Of a DNA stretch of 64,000 bases, positions 16,247 to 58,400 are shown piece by piece (position 1 is the stretch's first letter; each line of letters opens with the position of its first letter). The stretch comes from Eledone cirrhosa (lineage: Eukaryota). The position numbers were made by a program, and so were the translations under genes. The stretch is taken from contig OZ024740.1 of NCBI GenBank assembly GCA_964016885.1, positions 341,682,001 to 341,746,000 of the forward strand, written 5' to 3'. A model generated the notes under the pieces. It saw only the letters and a program-made list of their open reading frames with translations. It was not told where the DNA came from and searched no databases.

Positions 16247-16300
16247 TTGAATTGGTGCTCTGAAATAGTGATATATATATATGAATGTACGTATTGTATA

Positions 16301-16759: not shown

Positions 16760-16811
16760 GTAAGATAGCATTTTATTATGTCAATGAGAAGACATGCAAC
16801 CATAGACATAC

Positions 16812-17123
16812 TTTCTCACTCTTTCTCCTTCTCTTTCTTTCTGAAACTCTCTCTATCTGCAACTCTCTCTCTTTCTCTCTCAATCTCACTGCTTCTATCT
16901 CTCTCTGTTTCTCTCTTATTCTCTCTCTTTCTCTCTCTCTGTGCTTCTCTCTCACTTTCTCTTTCTCTCTCTCCTCTCTCCTCTCTCCTCTCTCCTCTCT
17001 CCTCTTTCTTTCTCTGCTTCTCTCTCACTATCTCTGTCTCTTTCTCCCTCTCTCTGCTTCTCTCTTACTCTGTGCTTCTACCCCTCTCTCTCTCCTTTCC
17101 TTGTCTGTCTGTCTCCCTCTCTC
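16812..17123. repeat. (CT)-rich degenerate microsatellite
   Basis: Polypyrimidine tract; it accounts for the spurious S/L-rich and R/E-rich ORFs. Confidence 0.9.
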
Positions 17124-17134
17124 TACATACATAT

Positions 17135-17810
17135 CCGTGGTATATCAAAAGAGTATCCAACCTCAGGCTGAGAATAAAACATTATGTACTTGGTGGGGTT
17201 CAATTGCTAATCCCCTTTGAAGTGGGCTCCTTGTCTCTCCACACACTTAGCCCAGCAATCCTTGCACTGTTTGAAGTACATCTGGAATGCTTCTTCTGTA
17301 TTGACTCACAGCTCTGACATTGCGGTGCACGTGATGTCTTCTCAGTTCTCAAAGAAGTCAGAAGGATCCATGTCTGGAGAGTAATGAGCCTGGCATATGA
17401 GTAAAATGGACTTCTTTGCCAAGAAACCATTGACCAGCTGCAATGAATGAGCTGGAGCATTGTCATGATGCAGTTGTTAGTTTTATGAGGCCAACAGATC
17501 TGCTTTTTTGTGCCCAACCGCATCACAAAGACCTTAGAAAACTTCCTAATAGTACTCCTTTGTAACTGTTTGTCCTTCTGTTTCATATTTATAATGCACA
17601 ATGCCTCTGTAATCAAAGAAAATAGTTAGCATCACTGTGATTTTGCTTCACATTTGACATGCTTTTGAGGGCCTTGGTGATGTTGGATGCTTCACTGTGA
17701 TGACAGCTTTGGTTTTTGGGGTCATATCCACACATCTATGTCTCATCTTGTTATCATAGCATTCAGAAACTCTGGATCCTTATTGGCAGTATCAGGCAAA
17801 TATGAAAATG
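17135..17810 (-). mobile_element. Degenerate mariner transposase relic
   Basis: Minus strand LHHDNAPAH...HYSPDMDPSDFF...W.KCVE.QG.HF.GD, plus a frameshifted IT(G)DET..CGYDP motif near 17720-17760. Confidence 0.85.
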
Positions 17811-25931: not shown

Positions 25932-28900
25932 AACGAAGGAGTTGTGGTAAGGAACCAGATGGACCATAACGCACCAGAGTACTCAATACTTAGGGTAATA
26001 GAGTGGGTAATAGGAGAAAGTATGACCCTAATGGCAGAGCTCAAGCCGTTTCAACGGCTATTTCTGGACTAAAGTAAGAGTTTTTTTAGTCTGGTAAATA
26101 AATAGCCAAACTTTTCAAGGCGTACACAGAAAAGTCTATCATGGCAGTGGGTGCAGGGAGGGGTGGCTGAACTTGCCTGTAGAACGATAGGGGAGTGGGT
26201 AGAGCCGGTCAAGCGTTAAAGGTGAAATCTACACGGCAAATTCTAAGGAATGTGTATGAAAGTAGGCCAGAGGAGGTTGGCGAAAAAAGTTTTTTTTAGA
26301 AAATGGAGGAGGGACGTTATAGAATTAGTAAATCAAAGGAGATTAGGGGACAATGAAAAAATATAATAAAAAAGAATATAATACAAAATATGAAGAACTT
26401 TTTTCTTGACAGATACCGTGACAACCAGGACTTCGACACCAAGGAGAGATTCGGATTCATTACCTACAAATCTCCCCCACTGAACCCTATGCTCTCACCC
26501 TTCGAGAACGACCTTTTCCAACTGGTCAAGGGTATTACATTCAAACCCAGACACAAACAATTCCTACAACAACTCCATAGCCAAATAACGGAGTATGAAA
26601 GCACCAACGACATCCTGGTGCACTCGGACAAAACTGGTAACCTCTATTTCGTCAACCCGGACAGATACCACAGACTGATCAGGAGCAGCCTAAACTCCAC
26701 CTATAAAAAGGCTAACCACTCAATTTTCGAGGACATAAATCTAGAGGGACAACAAATTACCTCTAGCCTCGGGGTCGCAGACCGCATTGAACCCCTCGAC
26801 CCATGGACTCCCTACTTCACACTGAAGGACCACAAATCCGACTTCGACCGCAAACCATCCATCAGGCTTATAAACCTGACGAAGTCAGACAGGTAGGATC
26901 AGTAAAATCATCCTAGATCGCGTTATACCAAAAGTTAAGCAAAACGCGAGACTTAGCCTATGGGTTAGCACCCAGGAAATAATCTCATGGTTCAGGAATA
27001 TTGAGGACAAACGGGACACAAAATTCATCCAGTTTGACATAGAGAGTTACTATGCATCTATTACCTTACCGCTCCTTACGGCCACCTTGGACTTTGTCGA
27101 AACACTCGCGCCCATCATCGACCAGGAAAGAAATATTTCCATGCCAGGAAGACAGTCCTACTTTTCGACAACTCCAAGTGGATAAAGAGAGCGCCCGACC
27201 CCCCCCCCCCTCGACGTCAGCATGGGCGCGACCGATTCGGCCGAGGTCACCGATCTTATAGGATTATTCCTACTATTTATACTCACCGAAATGTTTGCCG
27301 CATTTGGCGGTGGATTATACCGAGACGATGGGCTCTTTACCCTCAAAGGGTACAACCCCAGTAGTACAGACCGGGTCCGTAAACAACTTATCAACTTTTT
27401 CCGGGACTGGGAATTTAAACTCACCCTACAAACGTCCCTAACCCGAGTAAATTTTCTGGACGTTAACCTCAACCTCGAAAATGATCTGTACTACCAAACG
27501 ACAACCTGCACTACATCCACCACTGCTCTAACCATCCTAGAAACATCACCAATAATCTGGTTAAAAACAACTCCCTCCACATATCTCGTTTGTCTGCTAA
27601 TGAGCAGATATTCGACGAACATGCGCCTCATTACAACCGGGCCTTCAAGCGGAGTGGCTTCCGGGAGGAAATATCCTTTTATCCAGCTTCCCTTAGCGGA
27701 ACCAGCCGCCACTCACACCACGTAACGTGGTTCAATCCTCTCCACAATGCCGAGGTGGCAACACCTATCGAGAAAATCTTCTTTAGGCTCCTCGAAAAAC
27801 ACTTTCCACCACAACACCGCTACTACAACATAATCAACAAAAACACTATCAAGCTATCCTACAGCACCACACCTAACTTTGCACAAAACATCATCTCCTC
27901 AAACAACAACAAACTCAATCCCTATGGAAGAAACAACCTAGAAATTAGTGGAGAGCCGACCAGGAGGTGTAACTACCCTGATGGATCTTCGTGCCCCCTC
28001 AACAACAGATGCCGAGAACGTAATGTGATCTACCAGTGCAACGTGAGGACGGACACCTCCAACAAAGCTTATATAGGATTAACCGCTTGTGACTTTAAGA
28101 CCCGGCTCTACCAACACCGACATACATTCCGAAACCCGGTCCGGCGACATGCCACCACACTTTCGGGCCACATCTGGGACCTCCTAGATAATAATATAAC
28201 CAACAATCTCACTTGGAGCTTACTGTCCAGAGCTAACTCTTACACGCGAGGATCAACTCCTAAACAAAAAAGACGAACTGGTAACTGCATGCAAACACAG
28301 ATTGTGGAAGACTTACCTCACCCTCAAATCCCCTAACAATCCGGGTGGGTAGACAAGGGTTGAAACACCCCACTTGCCGAATAAGATAGGGAAAACCCCA
28401 ACTTATATAGGTAGATGTACCCCTTTTCTTTTCCTCTATGTTTTCTTCTTCCCTTTGTCTCCTATCACTTCTTTCCACCACCGAACTTCTTCCTCGTTCG
28501 TTTCTTTGTTTTTTTCCCCTCTCGCCTACCCAAAGGCAGCCCATCGGGCCTCTTTAGTCTCAGTACCCCCACCCCAGTAACTTACAGATAGCATTCGCCG
28601 ATTACACTATACTAACTATTCATAGCAGCTGAGTTAGACCCCAGAGATGTGGAATTAATTTTTAATACCCAATTCTAAATTTTCAATAATTCTCATCTAG
28701 CAACCCATTCTATAGCATTGGCCGAAAAAGCAGAACCAACTAAATATAGCAGCTGTGTTAGACTCCTTAGTTTTTGTTTTATTTCACTTCTCACTTTCCA
28801 ATCTTACATTCTGATATATCTGTCTCTCATTTTTTATTATATTCTTTATTATATTTTTTCTTTGTCCCCTAATCTCTTTTGATTTACTAATTCTATAACG

Positions 28901-29260
28901 TCCCTCCTCCATTTTCTAAAGAAACCTTTTTTTGCCAACCTCCTCTGGCCTACTTTCATACACATTCCTTAGAATTTGCCGTGTAGATTTCACCTTCAAC
29001 GCTTGACCGGCTCTACCCACTCCCTTATCGTTCTACAGGCAAGTTCAGCCACCCCCTCCCTGCACCCACTGCCATGATAGACTTTTCTGTGTCTGCTACA
29101 AGCCTTGACCAATCCTCTTGACAACTGCAATCTTCCCATATAAGGAAGTACCCCTTGAAAAGTTCGGCTATTTATTTACCAGACTAAAAAAACTCTTATT
29201 TTAGTCCAGAAATAGCCGTCGAAATAGCTTGAGCTCTGCCGTCGGGGTCATACTTTCTGC
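25932..29260 (+). mobile_element. Degenerate Naiad-type Penelope-like element with inverted pLTRs
   Basis: Broken ORF ~26390-28330 (HSDKTGNLY, LKDHK, QFDIESYY, MGA.DSAEV.DL.G, GLYRDDGL, NFLDV, WFNP, VIYQC...YIG); 26013-26389 is an inverted copy of ~28829-29258; (TA)n on both sides. Confidence 0.92.
29148..29252 (+). ncRNA. Hammerhead variant with U3-A8 core and long stem II
   Basis: ACCCC-TTGAAAA-G-TTCGGCTATTT...AAATAGCCGT-C-GAAA-TAGC-TTGAGCTCT-GCC-GT-C-GGGGT; mirror copy at ~26020-26124 (-) has GAAAC-GGC. Confidence 0.7.
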
Positions 29261-29276
29261 TATATATATATATATA

Positions 29277-29917
29277 TATTATTAAGTGTAATGAATTCTT
29301 TTACAATGGAATTAGCTCGAAGAAAGAAATATTTCTGAGCCGTGTATAAATTAATATATATGATGAAACACAAATACCAACACATCTGTATTTATATTGC
29401 AAAAGAAAATTTAGCCAGAATGAAGTATACTAATTATAATATTACAGTTTGTCCATATCGATTTAAAATAATAAATCAACGAAGACGAACTGCATTGCCA
29501 AATGGCCATGATGTTTAGACACATTTAAATTTCAAAATCAAACCTGTTCCGTAGATAAGTTTAAACTTTAAAATCCAAATATGTTTCGAGATGAATAAGT
29601 GTAAGGAATATCAAGTCCTGCTCTCTTCAGTAAACATCCAGGGACAAATTGATATGCTTCACTTCTAAATAATTTAAAAGACTGTGTAACGCACATGGTT
29701 CACAGTTTCTAGCTAGCCTCATAACCGTACTGCTAGAAATAACAGTCGTATATATGAGGCTACGTTCAGCTCAACCTAAGGAGCAAATTATATTATTAAG
29801 TGTAATGAATTCTTTTACAATGGAATTAGCTCGAAGAAAGAAATATTTCTGAGCCGTGTATAAATATATATGATGAAACACAAATACCAACACATCTGTA
29901 TTTATATTGCAAAAGAA

Positions 29918-29920
<3 letters not shown>
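29277..29920 (-). mobile_element. Retrozyme-like non-coding element: 514-bp unit plus ~130-bp direct repeat, between (TA)n
   Basis: 29277-29409 is repeated at ~29791-29919; hammerhead-like motif inside on the minus strand. Confidence 0.7.
29554..29638 (-). ncRNA. Hammerhead-like motif
   Basis: GTTTA-CTGAAGA-GAG...CTC-GAAAC-[16 nt]-GT-T-TAAAC; stems II and III are short or weak. Confidence 0.5.
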
Positions 29921-34227: not shown

Positions 34228-34900
34228 AATTTGTTTTGCAAGGTTTTTGATATGAAATCGTGTGTTGAAACAAATATTGTTATACTTGGGGAGGGTCATA
34301 TTGTTATAATATTGCCAGAAATAATAACAGAACACATTCACTGTTTGGTTTGGGTTGGTTTTCACTTCTGTATCTTTTATATCTTCATAGTTAATTCATT
34401 TGGCCATCAATGATTATCATTGACTGACCAACGGTCAAAAATACAGATATAAATACATATATATAGTCTAACAAAGTTCTTTCGTTGCACATCTGCAACA
34501 TCATCAGTGGTACTATTATGTTTCCTCCTGTTGTATTGTATATCTACACCATTTTATTTTATAGAGATAAAATAAAATGGCGTAGACATACAATACAACA
34601 GGAGGAAACATAATAGTACCACTGATGATGTTGCAGATGTGCAACGAAAGAACTTTGTTAGACTATATATATGTATTTATATCTGTATTTTTGACCGTTG
34701 GTCAGTCAATGATAATCATTGATGGCCAAATGAATTAACTATGAAGATATAAAAGATACAGAAGTGAAAACCAACCCAAACCAAACAGTGAATGTGTTCT
34801 GTTATTATTTCTGGCAATATTATAACAATATGACCCTCCCCAAGTATAACAATATTTGTTTCAACACACGATTTCATATCAAAAACCTTGCAAAACAAAT
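34228..34900. mobile_element. ~670-bp near-perfect palindrome (PLE pLTR-derived) with a hammerhead in each arm
   Basis: Arms 34228-34562 and 34567-34900; + arm motif at 34617-34660: CTGATGA-T-GTTGCA-GATG-TGCAAC-GAAA-GAAC-TT; termini homologous to those of 14382-16212. Confidence 0.88.
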
Positions 34901-35419: not shown

Positions 35420-35951
35420 AGAGGTAGAACACTGGAAGATAATATCCGTAGTGGTAGAGCACTCAGTCCATGGGACGAGTTAGGTAGAAGTGGTGACACA
35501 ACAGTTAATTCACCATACCGAGAACAATTATTTCACCTTAGTAGATCCTCAGCTTGTGGACTATGAATTGATGAACGGATAAATATTCTAAAGAGATTAC
35601 GCAATAGCGATTGCCTAAACTCAAGAAATGAATTCTTCACACATTGTCCACATGTTTGGAAACACCTCTTACATAACTACAAAGCTCTGGATTGAACAGC
35701 AACATCCTAATTTTCTTATCAACTAGAACCTTTTGGACTTTCGCAGTTATCTCCCTTACACTTCTCGCACGCAGTTTTGTATTGCCTGGGTGAAGTGACT
35801 GTTTCTGCGCATGCGCGTTCATGTTTCTGCGCATGCGCGTTCATACAGTTGTCCTTCCTGTTCCATATAACCATGTCCATTACGAGCTGAGGATCCGCTA
35901 AGGTGAAACAATTGTTCTCGGTATGGTGAACTAACTGTTGTGTCACCACTT
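35420..35951. mobile_element. Element with ~70-bp inverted hammerhead-containing arms between (TA)n
   Basis: ~35488-35556 is inverted at 35883-35951; + arm CGAG-CTGAGGA-TCCGCTAAGGT-GAAAC-AATT-GT-T-CTCG (35883-35920). Confidence 0.78.
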
Positions 35952-37455: not shown

Positions 37456-37486
<31 letters not shown>

Positions 37487-37523
37487 ATATAAGATCAAAA
37501 GATGGTTAAAGGAGTTCAATATA

Positions 37524-37590
37524 TTTTATTATGCGCATTTCAAAAACAAACATCATCAAACAATAATATTTGTGTTTTCATCAGATAAAA
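37524..37590 (-). ncRNA. Hammerhead in the 3' pLTR
   Basis: Reverse complement of 42797-42863. Confidence 0.85.
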
Positions 37591-38810
37591 CAGGAGAACA
37601 TGATATGAAGGCTAAAAAAACACTTGTTGATAGTGCAGTTTTAAATCAACATATGAAAAGTGGTTTTAGATTGATGTGTGATATTGGGAAAAATATTTTA
37701 TTTAGAGAGGGGGGGAGAGAAAAGGATGAAAAGGGAAGGAGATGAGAGGGAGAGATGGGTGATAGAGAGAAAGAGATAGTTTTTATAACAGAGAGGAGAT
37801 ATATTTTATATAGAGGGGTTGAAAACCGTTGGAAGATACTGTATAAATTAAAAATTTTGAAAATTAACGAAGGGAGGATATGTGCGAGGAAAAAATATAT
37901 TATATTTAGGGAGGGGTGGGGGTGGAAAGGATGAAAAAAAGGGAGGAGATGAGAGTGAAGGTGGAAAGGGAGAGATGGGTGATAGAGAGAAAGAGATAGT
38001 TTTTATAACTGAGAAAAAGATATAATGTTTTAATATAGAGAGGTTGGGAACCGTTGGAAGATAATGTATAAATTAAAGGAATTTGAAAATTAACGAAGGG
38101 AAATTATGTATGGAGATAGAGAGAAAAAAATAACGAAGGGAGATTATGTATGGAGATAGAGAGAAAAAAATAATAATTGTGGGTGAATATTCAAAAGGAG
38201 AAATGTAGGAATCTTAAAATTAGCAAAGAGAAAAAGTTTATGTATAGGATTTGAGAAAAATTTATATTGAATTCATATGTATTAATAATGAGTTCGTTGA
38301 TGGGGAGAAAAAAATAATAATAATAAATTAAGGATGAAATTGAGATTAAAAAGATTTATGATAGAGAGAAAAAATAATAATGATTGCGGATGAATACTCA
38401 AAATGTCAAAAACAAATGTTATTGTTTTACGAAGAGATATAATGAGGGTGATGAGTAAACGGGTATTATAGAGTGTATAATGCCCTTTAAAGTAAGGTAG
38501 ATGGGTATATTTTAAAGAATATATGAGTATATATTAAAAAAAATATATATAATAATAAATTAAGGATGAAATTGAGATTAAAAAGATTTATGATAGAGGG
38601 AAAAAAAAAAATAATAATGATTGCGGATGAATATTCAAAATGTCAAAAACAAATGTTATTGTTTTACGAGAAGATAGGATGAGGTAAATGAATAAACGAG
38701 TACTATAGAGTGTATAATGCCCTTTAAAGTAAGGTAGATGGGTATATTTTAAAGAGGTGTATGTATATGTGCCTTTGAGAAAAGATTCTAAATTGATAAA
38801 GAATTGAATA

Positions 38811-41213
38811 TTAACTGTATACTTTGTGAAAAGTTCTATGGAATTTATGAAGGCAGATGGAAAACAAATCCGAGCGTCTATTTATTATGGATTCTAGGTT
38901 AGAGATAATGGTAAATTTTTCATTTAGGCAGAGATTACAGATTTTAGATAGAGAACTGTTCAAGTACGAGGATGCAGAAGAAATCTTTTTCCAAAAGATG
39001 TTATATTTAATGTTTTTGTCTTTTAAGGACCATATGAGTTCTGAGAGAGCAGTGTTAGTTCTTTTAAGTTTGTATTTGAAAGATGAATGATGATTATAGA
39101 GACGAGCTTTAAAAGAGGTGGAAGTGGAGCCAAAATAGGTGAAGGAGTTGGTGCTAGTTATAATTTTACATTCATAAATTAAGTTTTTATCGAGGCAATG
39201 GTTGTTGAGAGGACATTTATTTTTAATGCGGCAGTTGCAATTAGAGAGATTATTAATGAGTGATCTAGTGTTATCTATAGAAGGAATTGGATTGGAGAAG
39301 TTGTTTGCGATAGGAATAATAGGAATAATAGTTTCTTGATTTAGAGTTGGATTATGAACATTTAGCGAAGTTGTGTTTGACGTTGCATTTGGGTTTACAG
39401 AAGTTAGCCTAGGGTTTACAATGACGTCAGGAGTACTATTATTGTTATTATGAGATTCAATATTGGAAGGAAGAGATTTAGTATTTAATATTTTGTTGTT
39501 GTGTTTAGAAATGATGTTGGAAATATTGGAGGATGTAGAATACGAAAATTTAATGGTGTGTTTGTTAAATATTTTACTATAGATATGTGAGGGAGGGAAG
39601 CATTTATTTAAGGCACTAAAAAATAATTTAGGAATATTGTTATTAATAGAGATGGAGAAAGGAGCATTATACCAGATTATGTTTTTGTATCTAGGTCTTT
39701 TATTAAAATTATTGGAATGGTTATGATTAAATATTCTACTGTAAGTTTTCCTAGAATTTGTTTCTTTATTATATTTGATTTTATCTGGATAGCCAGCTTT
39801 AGAAAGTGCGTTATTATAGTAATTGGCGTTAGCATCAAAGATGTTTTTATTAGAAGATATGTTAGATATTCTATTTCCAATATTATTAACTATAGCATTC
39901 TTGATATTGGTAGGATGGTTAGATTTAAAGTTAACATAATTAAGATTCTCATTGTTTTTATGGTAAGGGTAATATAGGCCAGTGTCAAGATTAAGAGATA
40001 CATCCAAGAAATTAGCTAGTTTGGTACTATTATCAAATTCAATTTTTAGGTTATGTTGGTTAAAGAGATTACGTATATTGTTCTTAATAATATTAAGTTT
40101 AACTATATTGCAATTTAGGATAGTAAAGAGTCCATCGTCACGATAAATTCCACCGCGAAGTTGAGGAATTTTCCGACTCAAAGAGTTCAAAATGAAGATA
40201 CCAATTAAATCAGTCAATTGGGATGAATCGGATGCTCCCATTGTGATGTCGAAGTTGTTAGAGGTATCGGCTCTGGTCCAATATTCGTTGTTGAACTCTA
40301 GGATGGTTTTACGTGCGGTGAGGATGATGTGAAGTTCATCTGTGGTGATGTCAGAATATTTAAGTGCGAAAGATAGAGCATTATTGAGAAGTGAAGGCGA
40401 AATGGAGGAATAGTAGCTGGCAATATCGAATTGAATAAATTTTAGTTTGTTTTTATTATCCAATTTGTTGAACCAGCCAATCACTTCAGAAGTACCAAAC
40501 CATAAATTTAGGTTTAAAGAAGAGCAATTAGAACTAACCTGTGGGATAATCCTATCCAAGATGGCTTTACTAACAACCCCCAGATCAGATTTAGAGGGGG
40601 CGATTAATCTAACAGGTAGTTCAGTGCGAAAATTGTTTTTGTGATCCTTGAGATTTATCCTCGGAGTTCTTGGGAGGAATGGTTCGGTCTTTTTTTCAAT
40701 GCCAAGTTTTGACATAATCTCATAGGCTTCAAGGTTTATGCATTCTAAATTTTCATGGTTGGTTTTACGATACTTTTTCCTAAGTTCCTTTAGGATAAGG
40801 TTGTTATAATTATCCTTGGAAATACCATATAGGTTATTGGTTTTGTCAGAGTGGACTAAAACATTTTTTGAGGAATTTAGGTTAGAGATTGTGTTCTTGA
40901 GATTTACAAGGTGCTCTTGTCCTTTGTAAGGGTATCTCTTGAATTTAAGATTTTTTATAATTTTAGTTAATTCTTCCTCGAATTGTGCTAGATTTTTGTT
41001 GGAAGGAGGATTTCGTCTGGAATTAAAAAGATGATCGAGGAAGTTGTGTTCTTTGGTATGAAAGTTCCCTTTTAGGCGCTGGTCATAGAAATAGGCTGTC
41101 CATCTAAGTCTTCTTACGAAGGAGTCAGTTTTTTCAATAAGAAGTTTGGTGAATTCAGATTTACCAGGTATAGGAATGTCTTTAGTAGAATTGGTTATGT
41201 TGTAATAATCCAT
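38811..41213 (-). CDS. Penelope-like RT plus GIY-YIG endonuclease, ~800 aa
   Basis: Uninterrupted ORF: KDIPIP, HSDKTNNLY, LKDHK, QFDIASYY, MGASD, GIYRDDGL, NFLDV, SNHP, CNCR..KCPL..C, LIYEC...YFGST...R..NH, CNLC..EK. Alternative ATG at 41240. Confidence 0.93.
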   Translation of the reverse strand: MDYYNITNSTKDIPIPGKSEFTKLLIEKTDSFVRRLRWTAYFYDQRLKGNFHTKEHNFLDHLFNSRRNPPSNKNLAQFEEELTKIIKNLKFKRYPYKGQEHLVNLKNTISNLNSSKNVLVHSDKTNNLYGISKDNYNNLILKELRKKYRKTNHENLECINLEAYEIMSKLGIEKKTEPFLPRTPRINLKDHKNNFRTELPVRLIAPSKSDLGVVSKAILDRIIPQVSSNCSSLNLNLWFGTSEVIGWFNKLDNKNKLKFIQFDIASYYSSISPSLLNNALSFALKYSDITTDELHIILTARKTILEFNNEYWTRADTSNNFDITMGASDSSQLTDLIGIFILNSLSRKIPQLRGGIYRDDGLFTILNCNIVKLNIIKNNIRNLFNQHNLKIEFDNSTKLANFLDVSLNLDTGLYYPYHKNNENLNYVNFKSNHPTNIKNAIVNNIGNRISNISSNKNIFDANANYYNNALSKAGYPDKIKYNKETNSRKTYSRIFNHNHSNNFNKRPRYKNIIWYNAPFSISINNNIPKLFFSALNKCFPPSHIYSKIFNKHTIKFSYSTSSNISNIISKHNNKILNTKSLPSNIESHNNNNSTPDVIVNPRLTSVNPNATSNTTSLNVHNPTLNQETIIPIIPIANNFSNPIPSIDNTRSLINNLSNCNCRIKNKCPLNNHCLDKNLIYECKIITSTNSFTYFGSTSTSFKARLYNHHSSFKYKLKRTNTALSELIWSLKDKNIKYNIFWKKISSASSYLNSSLSKICNLCLNEKFTIISNLESIINRRSDLFSICLHKFHRTFHKVYS

Positions 41214-41419
41214 GTTGTAGAAGAAGAGGTGAAGGACCATCAAAAGGTATCCAATATGAGAGTAAGCGCTCAACCGTTAAGGAGCAAGTAAATGTAGGAG
41301 GTGAGTTTTATTGTAGTACAATAAAGCAATGCAGATATCGGATAAGAAGCACTCTACAGTTTGTGGGACTGGAGTATGCATAATATAAGATCAAAAGATG
41401 GTTAAAGGAGTTCAATATA

Positions 41420-41486
41420 TTTTATTATGCGCATTTCAAAAACAAACATCATCAAACAATAATATTTGTGTTTTCATCAGATAAAA
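41420..41486 (-). ncRNA. Hammerhead in the 5' pLTR, ~200 nt upstream of the ORF
   Basis: Reverse complement of 42797-42863. Confidence 0.85.
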
Positions 41487-42796
41487 CAGGAGAACATGAT
41501 ATGAAGGCTAAAAAAACACTTGTTGATAGTGCAGTTTTAAATCAACATATGAAAAGTGGTTTTAGATTGATGTGTGATATTGGGAAAAATATTTTATTTA
41601 GAGAGGGGGGGAGAGAAAAGGATGAAAAGGGAAGGAGATGAGAGGGAGAGATGGGTGATAGAGAGAAAGAGATAGTTTTTATAACAGAGAGGAGATATAT
41701 TTTATATAGAGGGGTTGAAAACCGTTGGAAGATACTGTATAAATTAAAAATTTTGAAAATTAACGAAGGGAGGATATGTGCGAGGAAAAAATATATTATA
41801 TTTAGGGAGGGGTGGGGGTGGAAAGGATGAAAAAAAGGGAGGAGATGAGAGTGAAGGTGGAAAGGGAGAGATGGGTGATAGAGAGAAAGAGATAGTTTTT
41901 ATAACTGAGAAAAAGATATAATGTTTTAATATAGAGAGGTTGGGAACCGTTGGAAGATAATGTATAAATTAAAGGAATTTGAAAATTAACGAAGGGAAAT
42001 TATGTATGGAGATAGAGAGAAAAAAATAACGAAGGGAGATTATGTATGGAGATAGAGAGAAAAAAATAATAATTGTGGGTGAATATTCAAAATATTCATT
42101 ATTAATACATATGAATTCAATATAAATTTTTCTCAAATCCTATACATAAACTTTTTCTCTTTGCTAATTTTAAGATTCCTACATTTCTCCTTTTGAATAT
42201 TCACCCACAATTATTATTTTTTTCTCTCTATCTCCATACATAATCTCCCTTCGTTATTTTTTTCTCTCTATCTCCATACATAATTTCCCTTCGTTAATTT
42301 TCAAATTCCTTTAATTTATACATTATCTTCCAACGGTTCCCAACCTCTCTATATTAAAACATTATATCTTTTTCTCAGTTATAAAAACTATCTCTTTCTC
42401 TCTATCACCCATCTCTCCCTTTCCACCTTCACTCTCATCTCCTCCCTTTTTTTCATCCTTTCCACCCCCACCCCTCCCTAAATATAATATATTTTTTCCT
42501 CGCACATATCCTCCCTTCGTTAATTTTCAAAATTTTTAATTTATACAGTATCTTCCAACGGTTTTCAACCCCTCTATATAAAATATATCTCCTCTCTGTT
42601 ATAAAAACTATCTCTTTCTCTCTATCACCCATCTCTCCCTCTCATCTCCTTCCCTTTTCATCCTTTTCTCTCCCCCCCTCTCTAAATAAAATATTTTTCC
42701 CAATATCACACATCAATCTAAAACCACTTTTCATATGTTGATTTAAAACTGCACTATCAACAAGTGTTTTTTTAGCCTTCATATCATGTTCTCCTG

Positions 42797-42863
42797 TTTT
42801 ATCTGATGAAAACACAAATATTATTGTTTGATGATGTTTGTTTTTGAAATGCGCATAATAAAA
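42797..42863 (+). ncRNA. Type I hammerhead ribozyme in the Naiad pLTR (inverted copy)
   Basis: TTTTAT-CTGATGA-[AAACA-CAAATATTATT-GTTT-GATGATGTTTG-TTTTT]-GAAA-T-GCGC-AT-A-ATAAAA. Confidence 0.85.
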
Positions 42864-42986
42864 TATATTGAACTCCTTTAACCATCTTTTGATCTTATAT
42901 TATGCATACTCCAGTCCCACAAACTGTAGAGTGCTTCTTATCCGATATCTGCATTGCTTTATTGTACTACAATAAAACTCACCTCC

Positions 42987-43060
<74 letters not shown>

Positions 43061-43065
<5 letters not shown>

Positions 43066-44115
43066 TAACTCATGTCTATAGAATTAATCAGATATTAAAA
43101 TATATACTATTTCTTCTTCTAATCAGCATAATTAACCATATACATAATCAAATCTAGCAAGCTTTAAGAATAAATTTTCTAACGGGGAAATCTCCGACAA
43201 ATAACTGACCGCAGCCAGTTCGCGTTAACTCCGTTCACCATTTATCAAACACTTCGGCAGCATGCAGAATCCGATCAAATACACCGTCAACCGCACGTAA
43301 TTAGTAGTAAAATTAAACTTAGAAGAAATGCGCACATACCGTAATTATATCTCTACCATAGTTTCTTCCTAGTTTAGGACATCCAAATAATATGGATATG
43401 CTTTTTTGAGTCAGGAATCTTCAGGAGACAAACTCAGAAATAGACATTTAATTTCTCAGACATACCGCGCCAAATTTAGATTCAAAAATGGCTAAGGTCG
43501 CTATGTAGCTGTGTACCAGCCAGAGAGAAAGCGTGTGATTGGTCGCTTACGGCGGGTAGGCATGCTGCTAGAAAGCGCAGCCATATATCGCTAAATTTAA
43601 TCTCAACCGAAAGGGAGATTATTAAATATAGAGGTTTTCACATACATAAAATTAAACTAAATTAAATCAAGGATACATTTATGTGTTGCAACTGCTCATG
43701 GTAGAGATATAATTACGGTATGTGCGCATTTCTTCTAAGTTTAATTTTACTACTAATTACGTGCGGTTGACGGTGTATTTGATCGGATTCTGCATGCTGC
43801 CGAAGTGTTTGATAAATAATGGAACGGAGTTAACGCGAACTAGCTGTGGTCAGTTATTTGTCGGAGATTTCCCCGTTAGAAAATTTATTCTTAAAGCTTG
43901 CTAGATTTGATTATGTATATGGTTAATTATGCTGATTAGAAGAAGAAATAGTATATATTTTAATATCTGATTAATTCTATAGATATGAGTTATGATATAA
44001 TGCTCTGATTTTTTGATTTTAATTTATTAATTCTTCATTGAGCTTAAAAGTGAACAGTTGCAACACATATATGTATCCTTGATTTAATTTAATTTAATTT
44101 TATGTATGTGATAAC

Positions 44116-44122
<7 letters not shown>
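43061..44122. mobile_element. Non-coding element with interleaved inverted repeats (A-X-B-A'-Y-B') between (TA)n
   Basis: A 43061-43359 and A' 43698-43998; B ~43627-43698 and B' ~44051-44122. Confidence 0.85.
43349..43429 (-). ncRNA. Type I hammerhead ribozyme
   Basis: GTCTC-CTGAAGA-TTCCT...ATATCCA-TATTATT-TGGATGT...AGGAA-GAAAC-TATG-GT-A-GAGAT. Confidence 0.8.
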
Positions 44123-44163
<41 letters not shown>

Positions 44164-49436: not shown

Positions 49437-52400
49437 ACTTGGTTCTCTATCTTGTCTGTAGTACCCTTCTCCTATAACCTGGTTCTCTATCTTGCTTGTA
49501 GTCTCCTTCTCCTATAACTTGGTTCTCTATCTTGCTTATAGTCCCCTACTCCTATAACTTGGTTGTGTATCTTGCCTGTAGACCCCTTCTCCTATAACCT
49601 GGTTCTCTATCTTGCTTGTAGTCCCCTTCTCCTATAACTTGGTTCTCTATCTTGCTTGTAGTCCCCTTCTCCTATAACTTGGTTCTGTATCTTGCCTGTA
49701 GACACCTTCTCCTATAACTTGGTTCTGTATCTTGCCTGTAGACCCCTTCTCCTATAACTTGGTTCGCTATCTTACCTGTAGTCCCCTTCTCCTATAACTT
49801 CCTTCTGTATCTTGCCTGTAGTACCCTTCTCCTATAACTTGGTTCTCTATCTTGCCTGTAGTCCCCTTCTCCAATAACTTGGTTCTCTATCTTGCCTGTA
49901 GTACCCTTCTCCTATAACTTGGTTCTCCATCTTGCCTGTAGTCCCCTTCTCCAATAACTTGGTTCTCTATCTTGCCTGTAGTACCCTTCTCCTATAACTT
50001 GGTTCTCTATCTTGCCTGTAGTACCCCTCTCCTATAACTTGGTTCTCTATCTTGCCTGTAGTACCATTCTCCTATAACTTGGTTCTCTATCTTGCCTGTA
50101 GTCCCCTTCTCCTATAACTTGGTTCTGTATTTTGCCTGTAGTCCCCTTCTCCTATAACTTGGTTCTCTATCTTGCCTGTAGTACTCTTCTCCTATAACTT
50201 GGTTCTCTATCTTGCCTGTAGTACTCTTCTCCTATAACTTAGTTCTCTATCTTGCCTGCAGTCCCCTTCTCCTATAACCTGGTTCCCTATCTTGCCTGTA
50301 GTACCCTTCTCCTATAAATTGGTTCTCTATCTTGCCTGTAGTCCCCTTCTCCTATAACTTGGTTCTCTATCTTGCCTGTAGTCCCCTTCTCCTATAACTT
50401 GATTCACTATCTTGCCTGTAGTCCCCTTCTCCTATAAATTGGTTCTCTATCTTACCTGTAGTACCCTTCTCCTATAAATTGGTTCTCTATCTTGCCTGTA
50501 GTGTCCTTCTCCTATAACTTGGTTCTCTATCTTGCCTGTAGTACCCTTCTCCTATAACTTGGTTCTCTATCTTGCCTGTAGACCCCTTCTCCTATAACCT
50601 GGTTCTCTATCTTGCTTGTAGTCCCCTTCTCCTATAACTTGGTTCTCTATCTTGCTTGTAGTCCCCTTCTCCTATAACTTGGTTCTGTATCTTGCCTGTA
50701 GACCCCTTCTCCTATAACTTGGTTCTGTATCTTGCCTGTAGTCCCCTTCTCCTATAACTTCCTTCTGTATCTTGCCTGTAGTACCCTTCTTCTATAACTT
50801 GGTTCTCTATCTTGCCTGTAGTACCCTTCTCCTATAACTTGGTTCTCCATCTTGCCTGTAGTCCCCTTCTCCAATAACTTGGTTCTCTATCTTGCCTGTA
50901 GTACCATTCTCCTATAACTTGGTTCTCTATCTTGCCTGTAGTACCCCTCTCCTATAACTTGGTTCTCTATCTTGCCTGTAGTACCATTCTCCTATAACTT
51001 GGTTCTCTATCTTGCCTGTAGTCCCCTTCTCCTATAACTTGGTTCTGTATTTTGCCTGTAGTCCCCTTCTCCTATAACTTGGTTCTCTATCTTGCCTGTA
51101 GTACTCTTCTCCTATAACTTGGTTCTCTATCTTGCCTGCAGTCCCTTTCTCCTATAACCTGGTTTTCTATCTTGCCTGTAGTACCCTTCTCCTATAACTT
51201 GGTTCTCTATCTTGCCTGTAGTCCCCTTCTCCTATAACTTGGTTCACTATCTTGCCTGTAGTCCCCTTCTCCTATAAATTAGTTCTCTATCTTACCTGTA
51301 GTACCCTTCTTCTATAACTTGGTTCTCTATCTTGCCTGTAGTGTCCTTCTCCTATAACTTGGTTCTCTATCTTGCCTGTAGTACCCTTCTCCTATAACTT
51401 GGTTCTCTATCTTGCCTGTAGTCCCCTTCTCCTATAAGTTGGTTCTCCATCTTGCCTGTAGTACCCTTCTCCTATAACATGGTTCTCTATTTTGCCTGTA
51501 GTGTCCTTCTCCTATAACTTGGTTCTCTATCTTGCCTGTAGTCCCCTTCTCCTATAACTTGGTTCTCTATCTTGCCTGTAGTACCCTGCTCCTATAACTT
51601 GGTTCTCTATCTTGCCTGTAGTACCCTCCTCCTATAACTTGGTTCTCTATCTTGCCTGTAGTACCCTTCTCCTATAACTTGGTTCTCTATCTTGCCTGTA
51701 GTCCCCTTCTCCAATAACTTGGTTCTCTATCTTGCCTGTAGTACCCTTCTCCTATAACTTGGTTCTCCATCTTGCCAGTAGTCCCCTTCTCCAATAACTT
51801 GGTTCTCTATCTTGCCTGTAGTACCATTCTCCTATAACCTGGTTCTCTATCTTGCCTGTAGTACCCCTCTCCTATAACTTGGTTCTCTATCTTGCCTGTA
51901 GTACCATTCTCCTATAACTTGGTTCTCTATCTTGCCTGTAGTCCCCTTCTCCTATAACTTGGTTCTGTATTTTGCCTGTAGTCCCCTTCTCCTATAACTT
52001 GGTTCTCTATCTTGCCTGTAGTACTCTTCTCCTATAACTTGGTTCTCTATCTTGCCTGTAGTACTCTTCTCCTATAACTTAGTTCTCTATCTTGCCTGCA
52101 GTCCCCTTCTCCTATAACCTGGTTCTCTATCTTGCCTGTAGTACCCTTCTCCTATAAATTGGTTCTCTATCTTGCCTGTAGTCCCCTTCTCCTATAACTT
52201 GGTTCTCTATCTTGCCTGTAGTCCCCTTCTCTTATAACTTGGTTCACTATCTTGCCTGTAGTCCCCTTCTCCTATAACTTGGTTCTCTATCTTGCCTGTA
52301 GTGTCCTTCTCCTATAACTTGGTTCTCTATCTTGCCTGTAGTACCCTTCTCCTATAACTTGGTTCTCTATCTTGCCTGTAGACCCCTTCTCCTATAACCT

Positions 52401-55400
52401 GGTTCTCTATCTTGCTTGTAGTCCCCTTCTCCTATAACTTGGTTCTCTATCTTGCTTGTAGTCCCCTTCTCCTATAACTTGGTTCTGTATCTTGCCTGTA
52501 GACCCATTCTCCTATAACTTGGTTCTCTATCTTGCCTGTAGTCCCCTTCTCCTATAACTTGGTTCTCTATCTTGCCTGTAGTACCCTTCTCCTATAACTT
52601 GGTTCTCTATCTTGCCTGTAGTACCCTTCTGCTATAACCTGGTTCTCTATCTTGCCTGTAGTACCCTTCTCCTATAACTTGGTTCTCTATCTTGCCTGTA
52701 GTCCCCTTCTCCTATAACTTGGTTCTCTATCTTGCCTGTAGTACCCTTCTCCTATAACTTGGTTCTCTATCTTGCCTGTAGTCCCCTTCTTCTATAACTT
52801 GGTTCTCTATCTTGCTTGTAGTACCCTTCTCCTATAACTTGGTTCCCTATCTTGCCTGTAGTACCCTTCTCCTATAAATTGGTTCTCTTTCTTACCTGTA
52901 GTACCCGTCTCCTATAACTTGGTTCTCTATCTTGCCTGTAGTGTCCTTCTCCTATAACATGGTTCTCTATCTTGCCTGTAGTCCCCTTCTCCTATAACTT
53001 GGTTCTGTATTTTGTCTGTAGTCCCCTTCTCCTATAACTTGGTTCTCTATCTTACCTGTAGTCAACTTCTCCTATAACTTGGTTCTGTATCTTGCCTGTA
53101 GTGTCCTTCTCCTATAACTTGGTTCTCTATCTTGCCTGTAGTACCCTTCTCATATAACTTGGTTCTCTATCTTGCCTGTAGTCCCCTTCTCCTATAACTT
53201 GGTTCTCCATCTTGCCTGTAGTACCCTTCTCCTATAACATGGTTCTCTATTTTGCCTGTAGTCCCCTTCTCCTATAACTTGGTTCTCTATCTTGCCTGTA
53301 GTCCCCTTCTCCTATAACTTGGTTCTCTATCTTGCCTGTAGTACCCTGCTCCTATAACTTGGTTCTCTATCTTGCCTGTAGTACCCTCCTCCTATAACTT
53401 GGTTCTCTATCTTGCCTGTAGTACCATTCTCCTATAACTTGGTTCTCTATCTTGCCTGTAGTACCCCTCTCCTATAACTTGGTTCTCTATCTTGCCTGTA
53501 GTACCATTCTCCTATAACTTGGTTCTCTATCTTGCCTGTAGTCCCCTTCTCCTATAACTTGGTTCTGTATTTTGCCTGTAGTCCCCTTCTCCTATAACTT
53601 GGTTCTCTATCTTGCCTGTAGTACTCTTCTCCTATAACTTGGTTCTCTATCTTGCCTGTAGTACTCTTCTCCTATAACTTAGTTCTCTATCTTGCCTGCA
53701 GTCCCCTTCTCCTATAACCTGGTTCTCTATCTTGCCTGTAGTACTCTTCTCCTATAAATTGGTTCTCTATCTTGCCTGTAGTCCCCTTCTCCTATAACTT
53801 GGTTCTCTATCTTGCCTGTAGTCCCCTTCTCCTATAACTTGGTTCACTATCTTGCCTGTAGTCCCCTTCTCCTATAACTTGGTTTCTATCTTGCCTGTAG
53901 TGTCCTTCTCCTATAACTTGGTTCTCTATCTTGCCTGTAGTACCCTTCTCCTATAACTTGGTTCTCTATCTTGCCTGTAGACCCCTTCTCCTATAACCTG
54001 GTTCTCTATCTTGCTTGTAGTCCCCTTCTCCTATAACTTGGTTCTCTATCTTGCCTGTAGACCCCTTCTCCTATAACTTGGTTCTGTATCTTGCCTGTAG
54101 ACCCCTTCTCCTATAACTTGGTTCTCTATCTTACCTGTAGTCCCCTTCTCCTATAACTTCCTTCTGTATCTTGCCTGTAGTACCCTTCTTCTATAACTTG
54201 GTTCTCTATATTGCCTGTAGTCCCCTTCTCCAATAACTTGGTTCTCTATCTTGCCTGTAGTCCCCTTCTCCAATAACTTGGTTCTCTATCTTGCCTGTAG
54301 TACCCTTCTCCTATAACTTGGTTCTCTATCTTGCCTGTAGTCCCCTTCTCCTATAACTTGGTTCTCTATCTTGCCTGTAGTACCCTTCTCCTATAACTTG
54401 GTTCTCTATCTTGCCTGTAGTACCCTTCTCCTATAACTTGGTTCTCTATCTTGCCTGTAGTACCCTTCTCCTATAACTTGGTTCTCTATCTTGCCTGTAG
54501 TCCCCTTCTCCTATAACTTGGTTCTCTATCTTGCCTGTAGTCCCCTTCTCCTATAACTTGGTTCTTTATCTTGCCTGTAGTCCCCTTCTCCTATAACTTC
54601 GTTCTCTATCTTGCCTGTAGTACCCTTCCCGTATAACTTGGTTCTCTATCTTGCCTGTAGTACACTTCTCCTATAACTTGGTTCTCTATCTTGCCTGTAG
54701 TACCCTTCTCCTATAACTTGGTTCTCTATCTTGCCTGTAGTACCCTTCTCCTATAACTTGGTTCTCTATCTTGCCTGTAGTACCCTTCTCCTATAACTTG
54801 GTTCTCTATCTTGCCTGTAGTACCCTTCTCCTATAACTTGGTTCTCTATCTTGCCTGTAGTATCCTTCTCCTATAACTTGGTTCTCTATCTTGCCTGTAG
54901 TCCCCTTCTCCTATAACTTGGTTCTCTATCTTGCCTGTAGTACCCCTCTCCTATATCTTGGTTCTCTATCTTGCCTGTAGTACTCTTCTCCTATAACTCG
55001 GTTCTCTATTTTGTCTGTAGTCCCCTTCTCCTATAACTTGGTTCTCTATCTTGCCTGTAGTCCCCTTCTCCTATAACTTGGTTCTCTATCTTGCCTTTAG
55101 TACCCTTCTCCTATAACTTCGTTCTCTATCTTGCCTGTAGTCCCCTTCTCCTATAACTTGGTTCTCTATTTTGCCTGTAGTACCCTTCTCCTATAACTTA
55201 GTTCTCTATCTTGCCTGTAGTCCCCTTCTCCTATAATTTCGTTCTCTATCTTGCTTGTAGTCCCCTTCTCCTATAACTTGGTTCTCTATCTTGCCTGTAG
55301 TCCCATTCTCCTATAACTGGGTTCTCTATCTTGCCTGTAGTACCCTTCTCCTATAACTTGGTTCTCTATCTTGCCTGTAGTACCCTTCTGCTATAACCTG

Positions 55401-58400
55401 GTTCTCTATCTTGCCTGTAGTACCCTTCTCCTATAACTTGGTTCTCTATCTTGCCTGTAGTCCCGTTCTCCTATAACTTGGTTCTCTATCTTGCCTGTAG
55501 TACCCTTCTCCTATAACTTGGTTCTCTATCTTGCCTGTAGTCCCCTTCTTCTATGACTTGGTTCTCTATCTTGCTTGTAGTACCCTTCTCCTATAACTTG
55601 GTTCCCTATCTTGCCTGTAGTACCCTTCTCCTATAAATTGGTTCTCTTTCTTACCTGTAGTACCCGTCTCCTATAACTTGGTTCTCTATCTTGCCTGTAG
55701 TGTCCTTCTCCTATAACATGGTTCTCTATCTTGCCTGTAGTCCCCTTCTCCTATAACTTGGTTCTGTATTTTGTCTGTAGTCCCCTTCTCCTATAACTTG
55801 GTTCTCTATCTTACCTGTAGTCCACTTCTCCTATAACTTGGTTCTCTATCTTGCCTGTAGTCCCCTTCTCCTATAACTTGGTTCTGTATTTTGTATGTAG
55901 TCCCCTTCTCCTATAACTTGCTTCTCTATCTTGCCTGTAGTCCCCTTCTCCTATAACTTGGTTCTCTATCTTGCCTGTAGTCCCCTTCTCCTATAACTTG
56001 GTTCTCTATCTTGCCTGTAGTCCCCTTCTCCTATAACTTGGTTCTCTATCTTACCTGTAGTACCCTTCTCCTATAACTTGGTTCTCTATCTTGCCTGTAC
56101 TCCCCTTCTCCTATAACTTGGTTCTCTATCTTGCCTGTAGTCCCCTTCTCCTATAACTTGGTTCTCTATCTTGCCTGTAGTACCCTTCTCCTATAACTTG
56201 GTTCTCTATCTTGCCTGTAGTACCCTTCTCCTATAACTTGGTTCTCTATCTTGCCTGCAGTCCCCTTCTCCTATAACCTGGTTTTCTATCTTGCCTGTAG
56301 TACCCTTCTCCTATAACTTGGTTCTCTATCTTGCCTGTAGTCCCCTTCTCCTATAACTTGGTTCACTATCTTGCCTGTAGTCCCCTTCTCCTATAAATTG
56401 GTTCTCTATCTTACCTGTAGTACCCTTCTTCTATAACTTGGTTCTCTATCTTGCCTGTAGTGTCCTTCTCCTATAACTTGGTTCTCTATCTTGCCTGTAG
56501 TACCCTTCTCCTATAACTTGGTTCTCTATCTTGCCTGTAGTCCCCTTCTCCTATAACTTGGTTCTCCATCTTGCCTGTAGTACCCTTCTCCTATAACATG
56601 GTTCTCTATTTTGCCTGTAGTGTCCTTCTCCTATAACTTGGTTCTCTATCTTGCCTGTAGTCCCCTTCTCCTATAACTCGGTTCTCTATCTTGCCTGTAG
56701 TACCCTGCTCCTATAACTTGGTTCTCTATCTTGCCTGTAGTACCCTTCTCCTATAACTTGGTTCTCTATCTTGCCTGTAGTCCCCTTCTCCAATAACTTG
56801 GTTCTCTATCTTGCCTGTAGTACCCTTCTCCTATAACTTGGTTCTCCATCTTGCCAGTAGTCCCCTTCTCCAATAACTTGGTTCTCTATCTTGCCTGTAG
56901 TACCATTCTCCTATAACTTGGTTCTCTATCTTGCCTGTAGTACCCCTCTCCTATAACTTGGTTCTCTATCTTGCCTGTAGTACCATTCTCCTATAACTTG
57001 GTTCTCTATCTTGCCTGTAGTCCCCTTCTCCTATAACTTGGTTCTGTATTTTGCCTGTAGTCCCCTTCTCCTATAACTTGGTTCTCTATCTTGCCTGTAG
57101 TACTCTTCTCCTATAACTTGGTTCTCTATCTTGCCTGTAGTACTCTTCTCCTATAACTTAGTTCTCTATCTTGCCTGCAGTCCCCTTCTCCTATAACCTG
57201 GTTCTCTATCTTGCCTGTAGTACCCTTCTCCTATAAATTGGTTCTCTATCTTGCCTGTAGTCCCCTTCTCCTATAACTTGGTTCTCTATCTTGCCTGTAG
57301 TCCCCTTCTCTTATAACTTGGTTCACTATCTTGCCTGTAGTCCCCTTCTCCTATAACTTGGTTCTCTATCTTGCCTGTAGTGTCCTTCTCCTATAACTTG
57401 GTTCTCTATCTTGCCTGTAGTACCCTTCTCCTATAACTTGGTTCTCTATCTTGCCTGTAGACCCCTTCTCCTATAACCTGGTTCTCTATCTTGCTTGTAG
57501 TCCCCTTCTCCTATAACTTGGTTCTGTATCTTGCCTGTAGACCCATTCTCCTATAACTTGGTTCTCTATCTTGCCTGTAGTCCCCTTCTCCTATAACTGG
57601 GTTCTCTATCTTGCCTGTAGTACCCTTCTCCTATAACTTGGTTCTCTATCTTGCCTGTAGTACCCTTCTGCTATAACCTGGTTCTCTATCTTGCCTGTAG
57701 TACCCTTCTCCTATAACTTGGTTCTCTATCTTGCCTGTAGTCCCCTTCTCCTATAACTTGGTTCTCTATCTTGCCTGTAGTACCCTTCTCCTATAACTTG
57801 GTTCTCTATCTTGCCTGTAGTCCCCTTCTTCTATAACTTGGTTCTCTATCTTGCTTGTAGTACCCTTCTCCTATAACTTGGTTCCCTATCTTGCCTGTAG
57901 TACCCTTCTCCTATAAATTGGTTCTCTTTCTTACCTGTAGTACCCGTCTCCTATAACTTGGTTCTCTATCTTGCCTGTAGTGTCCTTCTCCTATAACATG
58001 GTTCTCTATCTTGCCTGTAGTCCCCTTCTCCTATAACTTGGTTCTGTATTTTGTCTGTAGTCCCCTTCTCCTATAACTTGGTTCTCTATCTTACCTGTAG
58101 TCCACTTCTCCTATAACTTGGTTCTGTATCTTGCCTGTAGTGTCCTTCTCCTATAACTTGGTTCTCTATCTTGCCTGTAGTACCCTTCTCATATAACTTG
58201 GTTCTCTATCTTGCCTGTAGTCCCCTTCTCCTATAACTTGGTTCTCCATCTTGCCTGTAGTACCCTTCTCCTATAACATGGTTCTCTATTTTGCCTGTAG
58301 TCCCCTTCTCCTATAACTTGGTTCTCTATCTTGCCTGTAGTCCCCTTCTCCTATAACTTGGTTCTCTATCTTGCCTGTAGTACCCTGCTCCTATAACTTG

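What the first reader, a model, noticed from the sequence alone, without database searches (positions are those of the whole stretch)
43555..43625. Conserved stem-loop motif shared by two otherwise unrelated hammerhead elements
Seen: 29730-29790 (CTGCTAGAAATAACAGTCGTATATATGAGGCTACGTTCAGCTCAACCTAAGGAGCAAATTA) aligns with 43565-43621 (CTGCTAGAAAGCGCAGCCATATATCGCTAAATTTAATCTCAACCGAAAGGGAGATTA). Both lie ~100-140 nt 5' of the hammerhead on the minus strand. On that strand both form a 5-bp hairpin with an NNUUUCUA loop and compensatory changes (GCUGC/GCAGC versus ACUGU/GCAGU), preceded by a TATAT box. Inference: an unnamed cis element such as a promoter, RT-recognition hairpin or protein-binding site, defining a class of non-coding mobile RNAs.
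Basis: partly seen in the sequence, partly recalled or inferred. Interest (0 to 1): 0.72.

Follow-up and report, generated by a model that had tools for sequence, protein, structure and literature searches.

The report
Retrozyme copy-start hairpin plus promoter-like box
The shared stretch belongs to two families of small, protein-free jumping repeats with hammerhead-ribozyme folds and has two parts: a bulged hairpin that lies just past the points where inserted copies end and is shared with protein-coding Penelope-type elements, which likely tells their copying enzyme where to start, and a 16-base box, also found in unrelated repeats, that is likely a host-protein site helping the repeats get transcribed.

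Summary
The two copies and their type I hammerhead folds are real. Families A (688 nt) and B (about 520 nt) are abundant non-LTR retrozymes in (TA)n, with no detectable homology to each other.

The shared stretch has two modules.

Module 1 is a bulged hairpin (NCUC-stem-loop-stem-UU-GAGN') with real covariation. It occurs twice per unit in A, B and the window's intact Hydra-type Penelope element. 43 of 49 A ends and 31 of 34 B ends stop just 5' of one copy. It is likely the reverse-transcriptase start signal, and its two copies explain the Penelope 'tail'. The scan noted this hairpin before, in this and other genomes.

Module 2 is the box GGCTGYKMTTTCTAGC (15,398 hits for its 14-nt core against 26 control). 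It is absent from the Penelope element and from U2/U6 promoters. It is present in an LTR element, an old repeat, a minisatellite and one promoter-like metagenome locus, and E-box or CCAAT words often follow it. It is likely a host transcription-factor site; an RNA-binding loop is the close rival. No RNA data were available.

The parts
43598..43621 (-). Module 1, proximal bulged hairpin of family A (core 43601-43618); likely RT start signal
   Evidence: folds with UU bulge; covariation across families; 15 of 49 A ends lie 1-12 nt 5' of it
43567..43582 (-). Module 2, 16-nt box (A form); likely host-factor site, at the apex of a weak stem in this copy
43536..43544 (-). CCAAT-type word at +40 from the box (label recalled)
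   Evidence: [CT][CT]AATCA at +40 in 9 of 10 A-type representatives
43349..43429 (-). Type I hammerhead fold of family A: core CUGAAGA...GAAA, long stem II, minimal stem III with 4-nt loop (one change from the family's palindromic loop), GUA site
   Evidence: stems read by eye; no Rfam hit; the MFE fold of this copy did not give the hammerhead shape
44002..44043 (+). Module 1, distal hairpin of family A on the inverted arm
   Evidence: 28 of 49 A ends lie 1-5 nt 5' of it
43059..44125 (.). Family A insertion: two back-to-back arms between (TA)n; one arm ends before the distal hairpin, the other before the proximal one
29769..29784 (-). Module 1, proximal hairpin of family B
   Evidence: 16 of 34 B ends lie 2-5 nt 5' of it
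29732..29747 (-). Module 2, 16-nt box (B form, minority G-to-A variant)
29714..29762 (-). Long hairpin presenting the box at its tip; 10-bp lower stem
   Evidence: z -3.6; lower stem covaries over 13 B-type sequences, 4 of 500 shuffles reach the score
29692..29697 (-). E-box-like word CATGTG where related families have CACGTG (label recalled)
29510..29638 (-). Type I hammerhead fold of family B: 8-bp stem I, CUGAAGA...GAAA, long stem III, GUC site
   Evidence: no Rfam hit
29829..29854 (-). Module 1, distal hairpin of family B (second copy at 29315-29340)
   Evidence: 15 of 34 B ends lie 3-18 nt 5' of it
29275..29920 (-). Family B insertion, about 1.25 monomers between (TA)n
41268..41285 (-). 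Module 1 proximal hairpin in the intact Penelope-like element, directly before or overlapping the ORF start
   Evidence: weak fold on its own (z -0.3)
41351..41375 (-). Module 1 distal hairpin in the Penelope-like element (mirror copy 42908-42932 +)
38811..41276 (-). 820-aa open frame of a Hydra-type Penelope-like element; candidate helper
   Evidence: many near-identical copies with an 821-aa open frame; motifs compared by eye with PMC8557442 section 11; no Pfam hit

Best explanation
The shared stretch is two neighbouring signals inside hammerhead-bearing retrozyme repeats: a covarying bulged hairpin, shared with Hydra-type Penelope elements and placed just 3' of where copies end, that likely positions the Penelope reverse transcriptase, and a 16-nt box that is likely a host transcription-factor site of an internal promoter. 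Shown: two hairpin copies per unit, their covariation, the clustering of 3' ends before them, insertion in (TA)n, and the box's spread and neighbours. Inferred: a tandem copy is transcribed from the box/E-box/CCAAT region upstream of one hammerhead and through the next. The Penelope protein then binds either hairpin, nicks (TA)n and starts cDNA a few nt 5' of the hairpin. Two hairpins give the two end classes, and so the inverted arms and the 90-130-nt tail. Copies longer than one cleavage-to-start stretch need a circular or uncleaved multimer template. Because the promoter is also part of the RNA, its flanks would have co-evolved to pair. Odds: module 1 as RT start signal about 0.8; module 2 as DNA site about 0.5.
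For: Ends: A 43 of 49 and B 31 of 34 distinct 3' ends lie within 12 and 18 nt 5' of a hairpin, while 5' starts are spread over the monomer. Helper element: 9 ends at 713-718 and 802-805 against hairpins at 718 and 808; 15 of 24 listed rows were set aside as breaks at internal T-runs or the reference end. 28 of 30 loci picked by the distal hairpin end about 85-90 nt later in a microsatellite (by eye). Covariation without asking for pairing: the outer pair is paired in 32 of 38 against 15.8 shuffled, 0 of 5000; G-C, A-U and U-A types occur, 0 of 500 shuffles. Penelope-type distal hairpin: 1,573 hits against 0. Precedent: the anole Poseidon RT starts at two internal sites that delimit the tail and needs RNA 3' of them (PMC11167929). 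Box as DNA site: CTG is kept in 90 of 100 listed sites found by the 3' half alone (by eye), though pairing registers differ. It occurs without the stem in 5 of 5 non-retrozyme contexts, in both orientations in one repeat (L129) and in tandem (L389). Exact CACGTG lies within 100 nt 3' in 11 of 29 representatives, 7 of 12 lineages, against a shuffled mean of 0.5, maximum 4. One animal-like metagenome locus (L243, L256, L268) has the 18-mer amid CRE, X-box, E-box and E2F words (labels recalled).
Against: No transcript, start site, cleavage or binding data. The box has not been found at any host promoter in this genome; the CRE + box search gave 39 hits, of which those inspected or recognisable were repeats. 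No factor is named. The box sits at the tip of a co-evolving stem: the native 3' flank beats swapped flanks in 27 of 33, and z is -2.1 against -0.3 in control windows, p 5e-6. That is what an RNA-binding loop would look like. The intact helper and 30 of 30 helper-type ends lack the box upstream, so it is not needed for Penelope transcription. In the old repeat, copies picked without the motif keep it only modestly better than its flanks (0.69 against 0.51 and 0.62; exact in 1 of 29). Most box sites were found with the box pattern, so its invariance is partly built in. Inner pairs of module 1 show no excess in the unbiased proximal set, and 6 of 24 rows in alignment A1 are misaligned on the 5' side. 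The metagenome locus is 1 locus (3 contigs) among 33 mostly chance-like hits. Representatives are related, so counts overstate independence.
Confidence: 0.5

Rival explanations
1. Module 1 as above, but the 16-nt box works in RNA. It is the conserved tip of a long stem-loop that binds a host or Penelope protein and helps a non-coding RNA capture the helper protein in trans, or stabilises or exports the circle.
For: Entirely different but complementary lower stems in many families. Covariation 4 of 500. Inner pairs always pairable. Fixed place 19-25 nt behind module 1 in 36 of 38. Present in non-autonomous elements and absent from the autonomous one. Sense orientation in the LTR element.
Against: Sense strand is not more stable than antisense beyond control windows (p 0.34). 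The stem is weak in A-type copies. The box occurs without a stem, in both orientations and in a minisatellite, and in the old repeat it is opposite to the (AAC)n end.
Confidence: 0.33
2. The box is a remnant of shared ancestry or a piece captured from the old dispersed repeat, with no present function; the pairing only reflects general compaction of retrozyme RNA.
For: The old repeat is abundant and carries the box; published retrozyme circles are predicted to be highly self-paired (PMC7229834 passage).
Against: Kept across at least 12 lineages whose flanks do not align; local folding exceeds other monomer windows.
Confidence: 0.1
3. One reading: one element consisting of a TATA box and a 5-bp hairpin, for example a U6-type promoter.
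For: U6 genes here have a TATA at about -30, and one U6 array has loosely similar letters behind it.
Against: 0 matches at up to 2 mismatches in 30 U6 loci; 4 in 25 U2 loci, none in the upstream stretch. TATAT is not conserved and spacing varies by 6 nt. The fixed stem is unsupported.
Confidence: 0.05

Closest known systems
Animal non-LTR retrozymes (PMC7229834, passages read; bioRxiv 10.64898/2026.07.22.740005, parts 1-3 of 5 read)
   Same: Non-coding, tandem or dispersed units with one type I hammerhead each; size within the 51-972 nt reported; proposed dependence on Penelope-like elements.
   Different: In what I read neither paper describes a shared cis-signal, end mapping or an internal promoter. 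Here A and B share no alignable sequence with each other, and what they visibly share with the helper is a small hairpin.
Internal RT initiation and tail of anole Poseidon PAc (PMC11167929, parts 1-2 of 4 read)
   Same: Two internal start sites delimit the tail; RNA 3' of the starts is required; AT-rich targets.
   Different: PAc starts in an AC-rich stem-loop inside the ORF with a 30-40-nt tail. Here each start is followed by its own copy of one bulged hairpin, the tail is about 70-130 nt, and non-coding parasites carry the same hairpin.
Hydra-clade Penelope-like elements (PMC8557442, section 11 and passages read)
   Same: C-terminal endonuclease, DKT, CxCX5C linker, (TA)n targets, hammerhead core.
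   Different: Unit 3.9 kb rather than under 3 kb; RWT instead of RWK; the end hairpins are not mentioned in what I read.
Newt satellite 2 with an snRNA-type promoter (recalled; no paper showing it was retrieved)
   Same: A promoter carried inside a hammerhead repeat unit.
   Different: This box does not match the host's U2 or U6 upstream elements.

Membership tests
Non-LTR retrozyme | Tandem units, each with a type I hammerhead | tested here: met
   688-nt tandem L013 and 523-nt tandem L048; cores and stems
Non-LTR retrozyme | No protein-coding frame | tested here: met
   No ORF of 90 aa or more within either unit
Non-LTR retrozyme | Self-cleavage and circular RNA in vivo | not testable with these tools
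   needs transcription assays or RNA reads
Type I hammerhead | CUGANGA, GAAA, NUH and three helices | tested here: met
   read from sequence; B's MFE fold shows stems I and III
Type I hammerhead | Match to an Rfam hammerhead model | tested here: not met
   no hit at E up to 10; long inserted stems
Hydra-clade PLE (helper 38811-41276) | DKT motif, CxCX5C linker, no CCHH, C-terminal endonuclease | tested here: met
   by eye on the translation; Pfam gave no hit
Hydra-clade PLE (helper 38811-41276) | RWK motif and length under 3 kb | tested here: inconclusive
   RWT; repeat spacing 3,896 nt; the paper says 'generally short'
Hydra-clade PLE (helper 38811-41276) | Placement in the RT phylogeny | not tested
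   no reference proteins fetched
Hydra-clade PLE (helper 38811-41276) | (TA)n insertion and hammerhead in the pLTR | tested here: met
   (core by pattern only)
snRNA-type (U2/U6) promoter | Same upstream element as host U2 or U6 genes | tested here: not met
   other snRNA-type genes (7SK, RNase P, U1) not examined
SINE central domains (Meta, Deu/Nin, CORE, V, MESC) | Box is part of a published domain | tested here: inconclusive
   no match in supplements of PMC4824008 and PMC4758252; file 1 of each not searchable and figures not held
PLE internal RT start signal (PAc type) | Genomic 3' ends fall at two internal sites with required RNA on the 3' side | tested here: inconclusive
   ends met; the requirement is not testable here

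The most novel reading that the evidence does not exclude
These retrozymes are modular parasites built from three parts: a duplicated bulged hairpin that is the whole recognition code for Hydra-type Penelope reverse transcriptase, a hammerhead, and a 16-nt site for an undescribed host factor. That site is old enough to sit in another animal's promoter and useful enough to have been picked up independently by retrozymes, an LTR element, an old dispersed repeat and a minisatellite.
Probability: 0.3. Interest if true: 0.78.

Novelty: new variant of a known kind. Interest (0 to 1): 0.56.

Why it matters
How Penelope-like elements choose their RNA and make their tailed, inverted insertions, and how retrozymes borrow that machinery, are open questions. 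A hairpin of about 20 nt shared by helper and parasite, with many intact helper copies at hand, makes both directly testable and could serve as a tag for Penelope-mediated insertion. The 16-nt box points to a host factor exploited by several repeat classes in this genome.

Tried and rejected
Rfam: only microsatellite-driven miRNA noise and weak tRNA-like hits.

U2/U6 promoter: rejected.

3' splice site (TTTCTAG/CAG): dropped because the CAG is missing in many families.

SINE core domain: not matched.

Long-range pairing of GGCUG with a downstream CAGUC or UAGCC: no covariation in the consensus folds. The A-type consensus fold pairs the 3' arm of module 1 with invariant downstream letters, which says nothing for or against.

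RNA evidence: no RNA holder listed; runs X1-X3 behave as genomic DNA, and L129, first taken for a host promoter, is itself a repeat.

A strict hammerhead descriptor found a full fold behind only 3 of 89 sites, plus 6 with a UUGAUAA core. The count of 35 retrozyme-like sites therefore rests on module 1, family likeness and core words seen by eye and.

Literature. The exact box words gave 0 papers; one search was swamped by CRISPR guide scaffolds, which share GCTAGAAATAGC by coincidence. Subscription papers, Repbase and Dfam were not searchable.

Resemblances to MEF2, BCL6 and ZNF143 sites, U7 Sm site, histone stem-loop and vault RNA 5' end are recalled and untested.

The minisatellite test was weakly positive (0.8-0.9 in the box against 0.6-0.8 elsewhere) and indels confound it.

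The test of the box's 3' half given only its 5' half was not run. No covariance model was built; descriptors and pair counts were used instead.

Full report
Setting. The window is G000:C1:341682001-341746000 of a 3.0-Gb animal genome. Both strings are present as stated. Each lies in a high-copy repeat: 1,718 and 2,009 first-look candidates, top copies 92-100% identical. Tandem copies give monomers of 688 nt (A, L013) and 523 nt (B, L048), inserted in (TA)n as partial tandems and back-to-back arms. Each monomer has one type I hammerhead fold on the minus strand: A with a long stem II and a minimal palindromic stem III, B with an 8-bp stem I and a long stem III. Rfam detects neither. The monomers do not align better than shuffles (25 against 24.7 +/- 2.9). 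This fits animal non-LTR retrozymes, proposed to depend on Penelope-like elements.

In 24 representatives the fixed 5-bp stem has one two-sided change, 11 broken C9-G24 cells and no excess over shuffles. The window's A-U pair in B is a minority variant. TATAT is absent from most other families. The two inner pairs can always form, however, and the box sits on a longer stem whose sequence differs by family. In 13 B-type sequences the lower stem has two-sided changes at 3 of 7 pairs. Native 3' flanks fold better than swapped ones in 27 of 33 retrozyme-like sites and 0 of 5 other contexts. Box windows have mean z -2.1 against -0.3 for 238 other windows. The window's A copy is one of the weak cases.

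Module 1. Picked by primary words only, the outer pair is complementary in 32 of 38 distinct units against 15.8 shuffled; the inner pairs are nearly invariant and show no excess. On a 24-row alignment with G-C, A-U and U-A types, 0 of 500 shuffles reach the score, although 6 long-loop rows are misaligned. The same hairpin stands in the window's intact Penelope-like element (820-aa frame; many copies with open frames) and before the ORF of a second element, 38% identical (L026). That helper has the DKT, CxCX5C and (TA)n traits of the Hydra clade (by eye, no tree).

Ends. A, B and the helper each carry two copies of module 1. Of 49 distinct A 3' ends, 28 lie 1-5 nt before the distal and 15 lie 1-12 nt before the proximal hairpin. 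Of 34 B ends, 16 lie 2-5 nt before the proximal and 15 lie 3-18 nt before the distal one; AT-rich sequence blurs the latter. For the helper 9 ends fit; 15 of 24 rows were internal alignment breaks or the reference end and were set aside. 5' starts are scattered. A pattern for the helper-type distal hairpin has 1,573 hits against 0. Of the 30 fetched, 28 end about 85-90 nt further on, 15 have a hammerhead core 100-107 nt upstream, and none has the box upstream. The anole Poseidon enzyme starts at two internal sites that delimit the tail and needs RNA 3' of them. I infer that each hairpin sets one start, which explains the two end classes. I reached this reading (note) before seeing that the scan had noted the hairpin several times in this genome and similar folds in others; those notes are not independent support.

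Module 2. GGCTGYKMTTTCTA has 15,398 hits against 26; 3,571 of them have a TGAG word 12-24 nt upstream. Of 89 distinct sites from the first 33 Mb of C1 (90 of the 100 listed places were fetched), I sorted by eye 35 as retrozyme-like, 11 as a non-coding LTR element, 35 as an old roughly 200-nt dispersed repeat or unassigned, and 8 as small other families. The box also forms part of a dispersed 50-nt minisatellite. It is absent from the helper at up to 3 mismatches and from U6 and U2 upstream regions. Found by its 3' half only, 90 of 100 listed sites keep CTG (by eye), and 15 fetched variants include further lineages, several with a hammerhead core downstream. Within 100 nt 3' of the box, 17 of 29 representatives have a recalled promoter word against 4 of 29 in a downstream control stretch and 5.9 in shuffles; CACGTG occurs in 11. 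The metagenome scan gave 33 loci, mostly chance-like, but one animal-like locus on three contigs has the 18-mer among CRE, X-box, E-box and E2F words. Against a DNA site: no host promoter with the box was found here, retention in the old repeat is modest, and the co-evolving stem suits an RNA loop. Scan notes report U6-type promoters at the same place in other retrozyme families (not tested by me) and none mentions this box.

Verdict. The elements are of a known kind. The probable RT start hairpin shared by helper and parasite was not found in print in the searches listed, but is known to the scan; the box is new to both and its mode of action is open, DNA site about 0.5, RNA loop about 0.33. 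Supplement file 1 of PMC4824008 and of PMC4758252, all figures, and the bioRxiv supplements could not be seen and may bear on whether the box or hairpin is already catalogued.

Noticed in passing
window 37479-42994: Intact, young Hydra-type Penelope element with inverted pLTR arms; dozens of copies with 821-aa open frames genome-wide
   Followed up: partly
window 14360-16233, 25932-29263, 34229-34900, about 35500-35950: Further Penelope-like fragments and fold-back stubs in (TA)n, several with hammerhead cores on both arms
   Followed up: no
window 49437-64000: 40-nt satellite, 364 copies, 93% alike
   Followed up: no
L127, L137: About 2-kb non-coding LTR element with a primer-binding-site-like word, carrying the box internally in sense orientation
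   Followed up: partly
L134, L360-L388: Old roughly 200-nt dispersed repeat ending in (AAC)n, no tRNA head seen; carries the box in the orientation that would give a GAAA-tetraloop hairpin; class unknown
   Followed up: partly
L389, L415-L444: Dispersed 50-nt minisatellite family whose unit contains the box; 482 distinct units in the 19 loci examined
   Followed up: partly
L243 540-630 (also L256, L268): Animal-like metagenome DNA with CRE, X-box, E-box, the box and an E2F word within about 90 nt (labels recalled)
   Followed up: partly
L220, L123, L094, L230, L135: B-type retrozyme families whose hammerhead core reads UUGAUAA instead of CUGANGA in several related families; activity unknown
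   Followed up: no
L061-L090, L151-L175: Tandem U6 array on C19 and U2 arrays on C3; U6 upstream has an octamer-like word at about -77 and TATA at -30, U2 upstream differs
   Followed up: partly
window 12034-17220: Exon-like frames with EGF-type cysteine spacing on the + strand suggest the elements lie in introns of a host gene (by eye)
   Followed up: no
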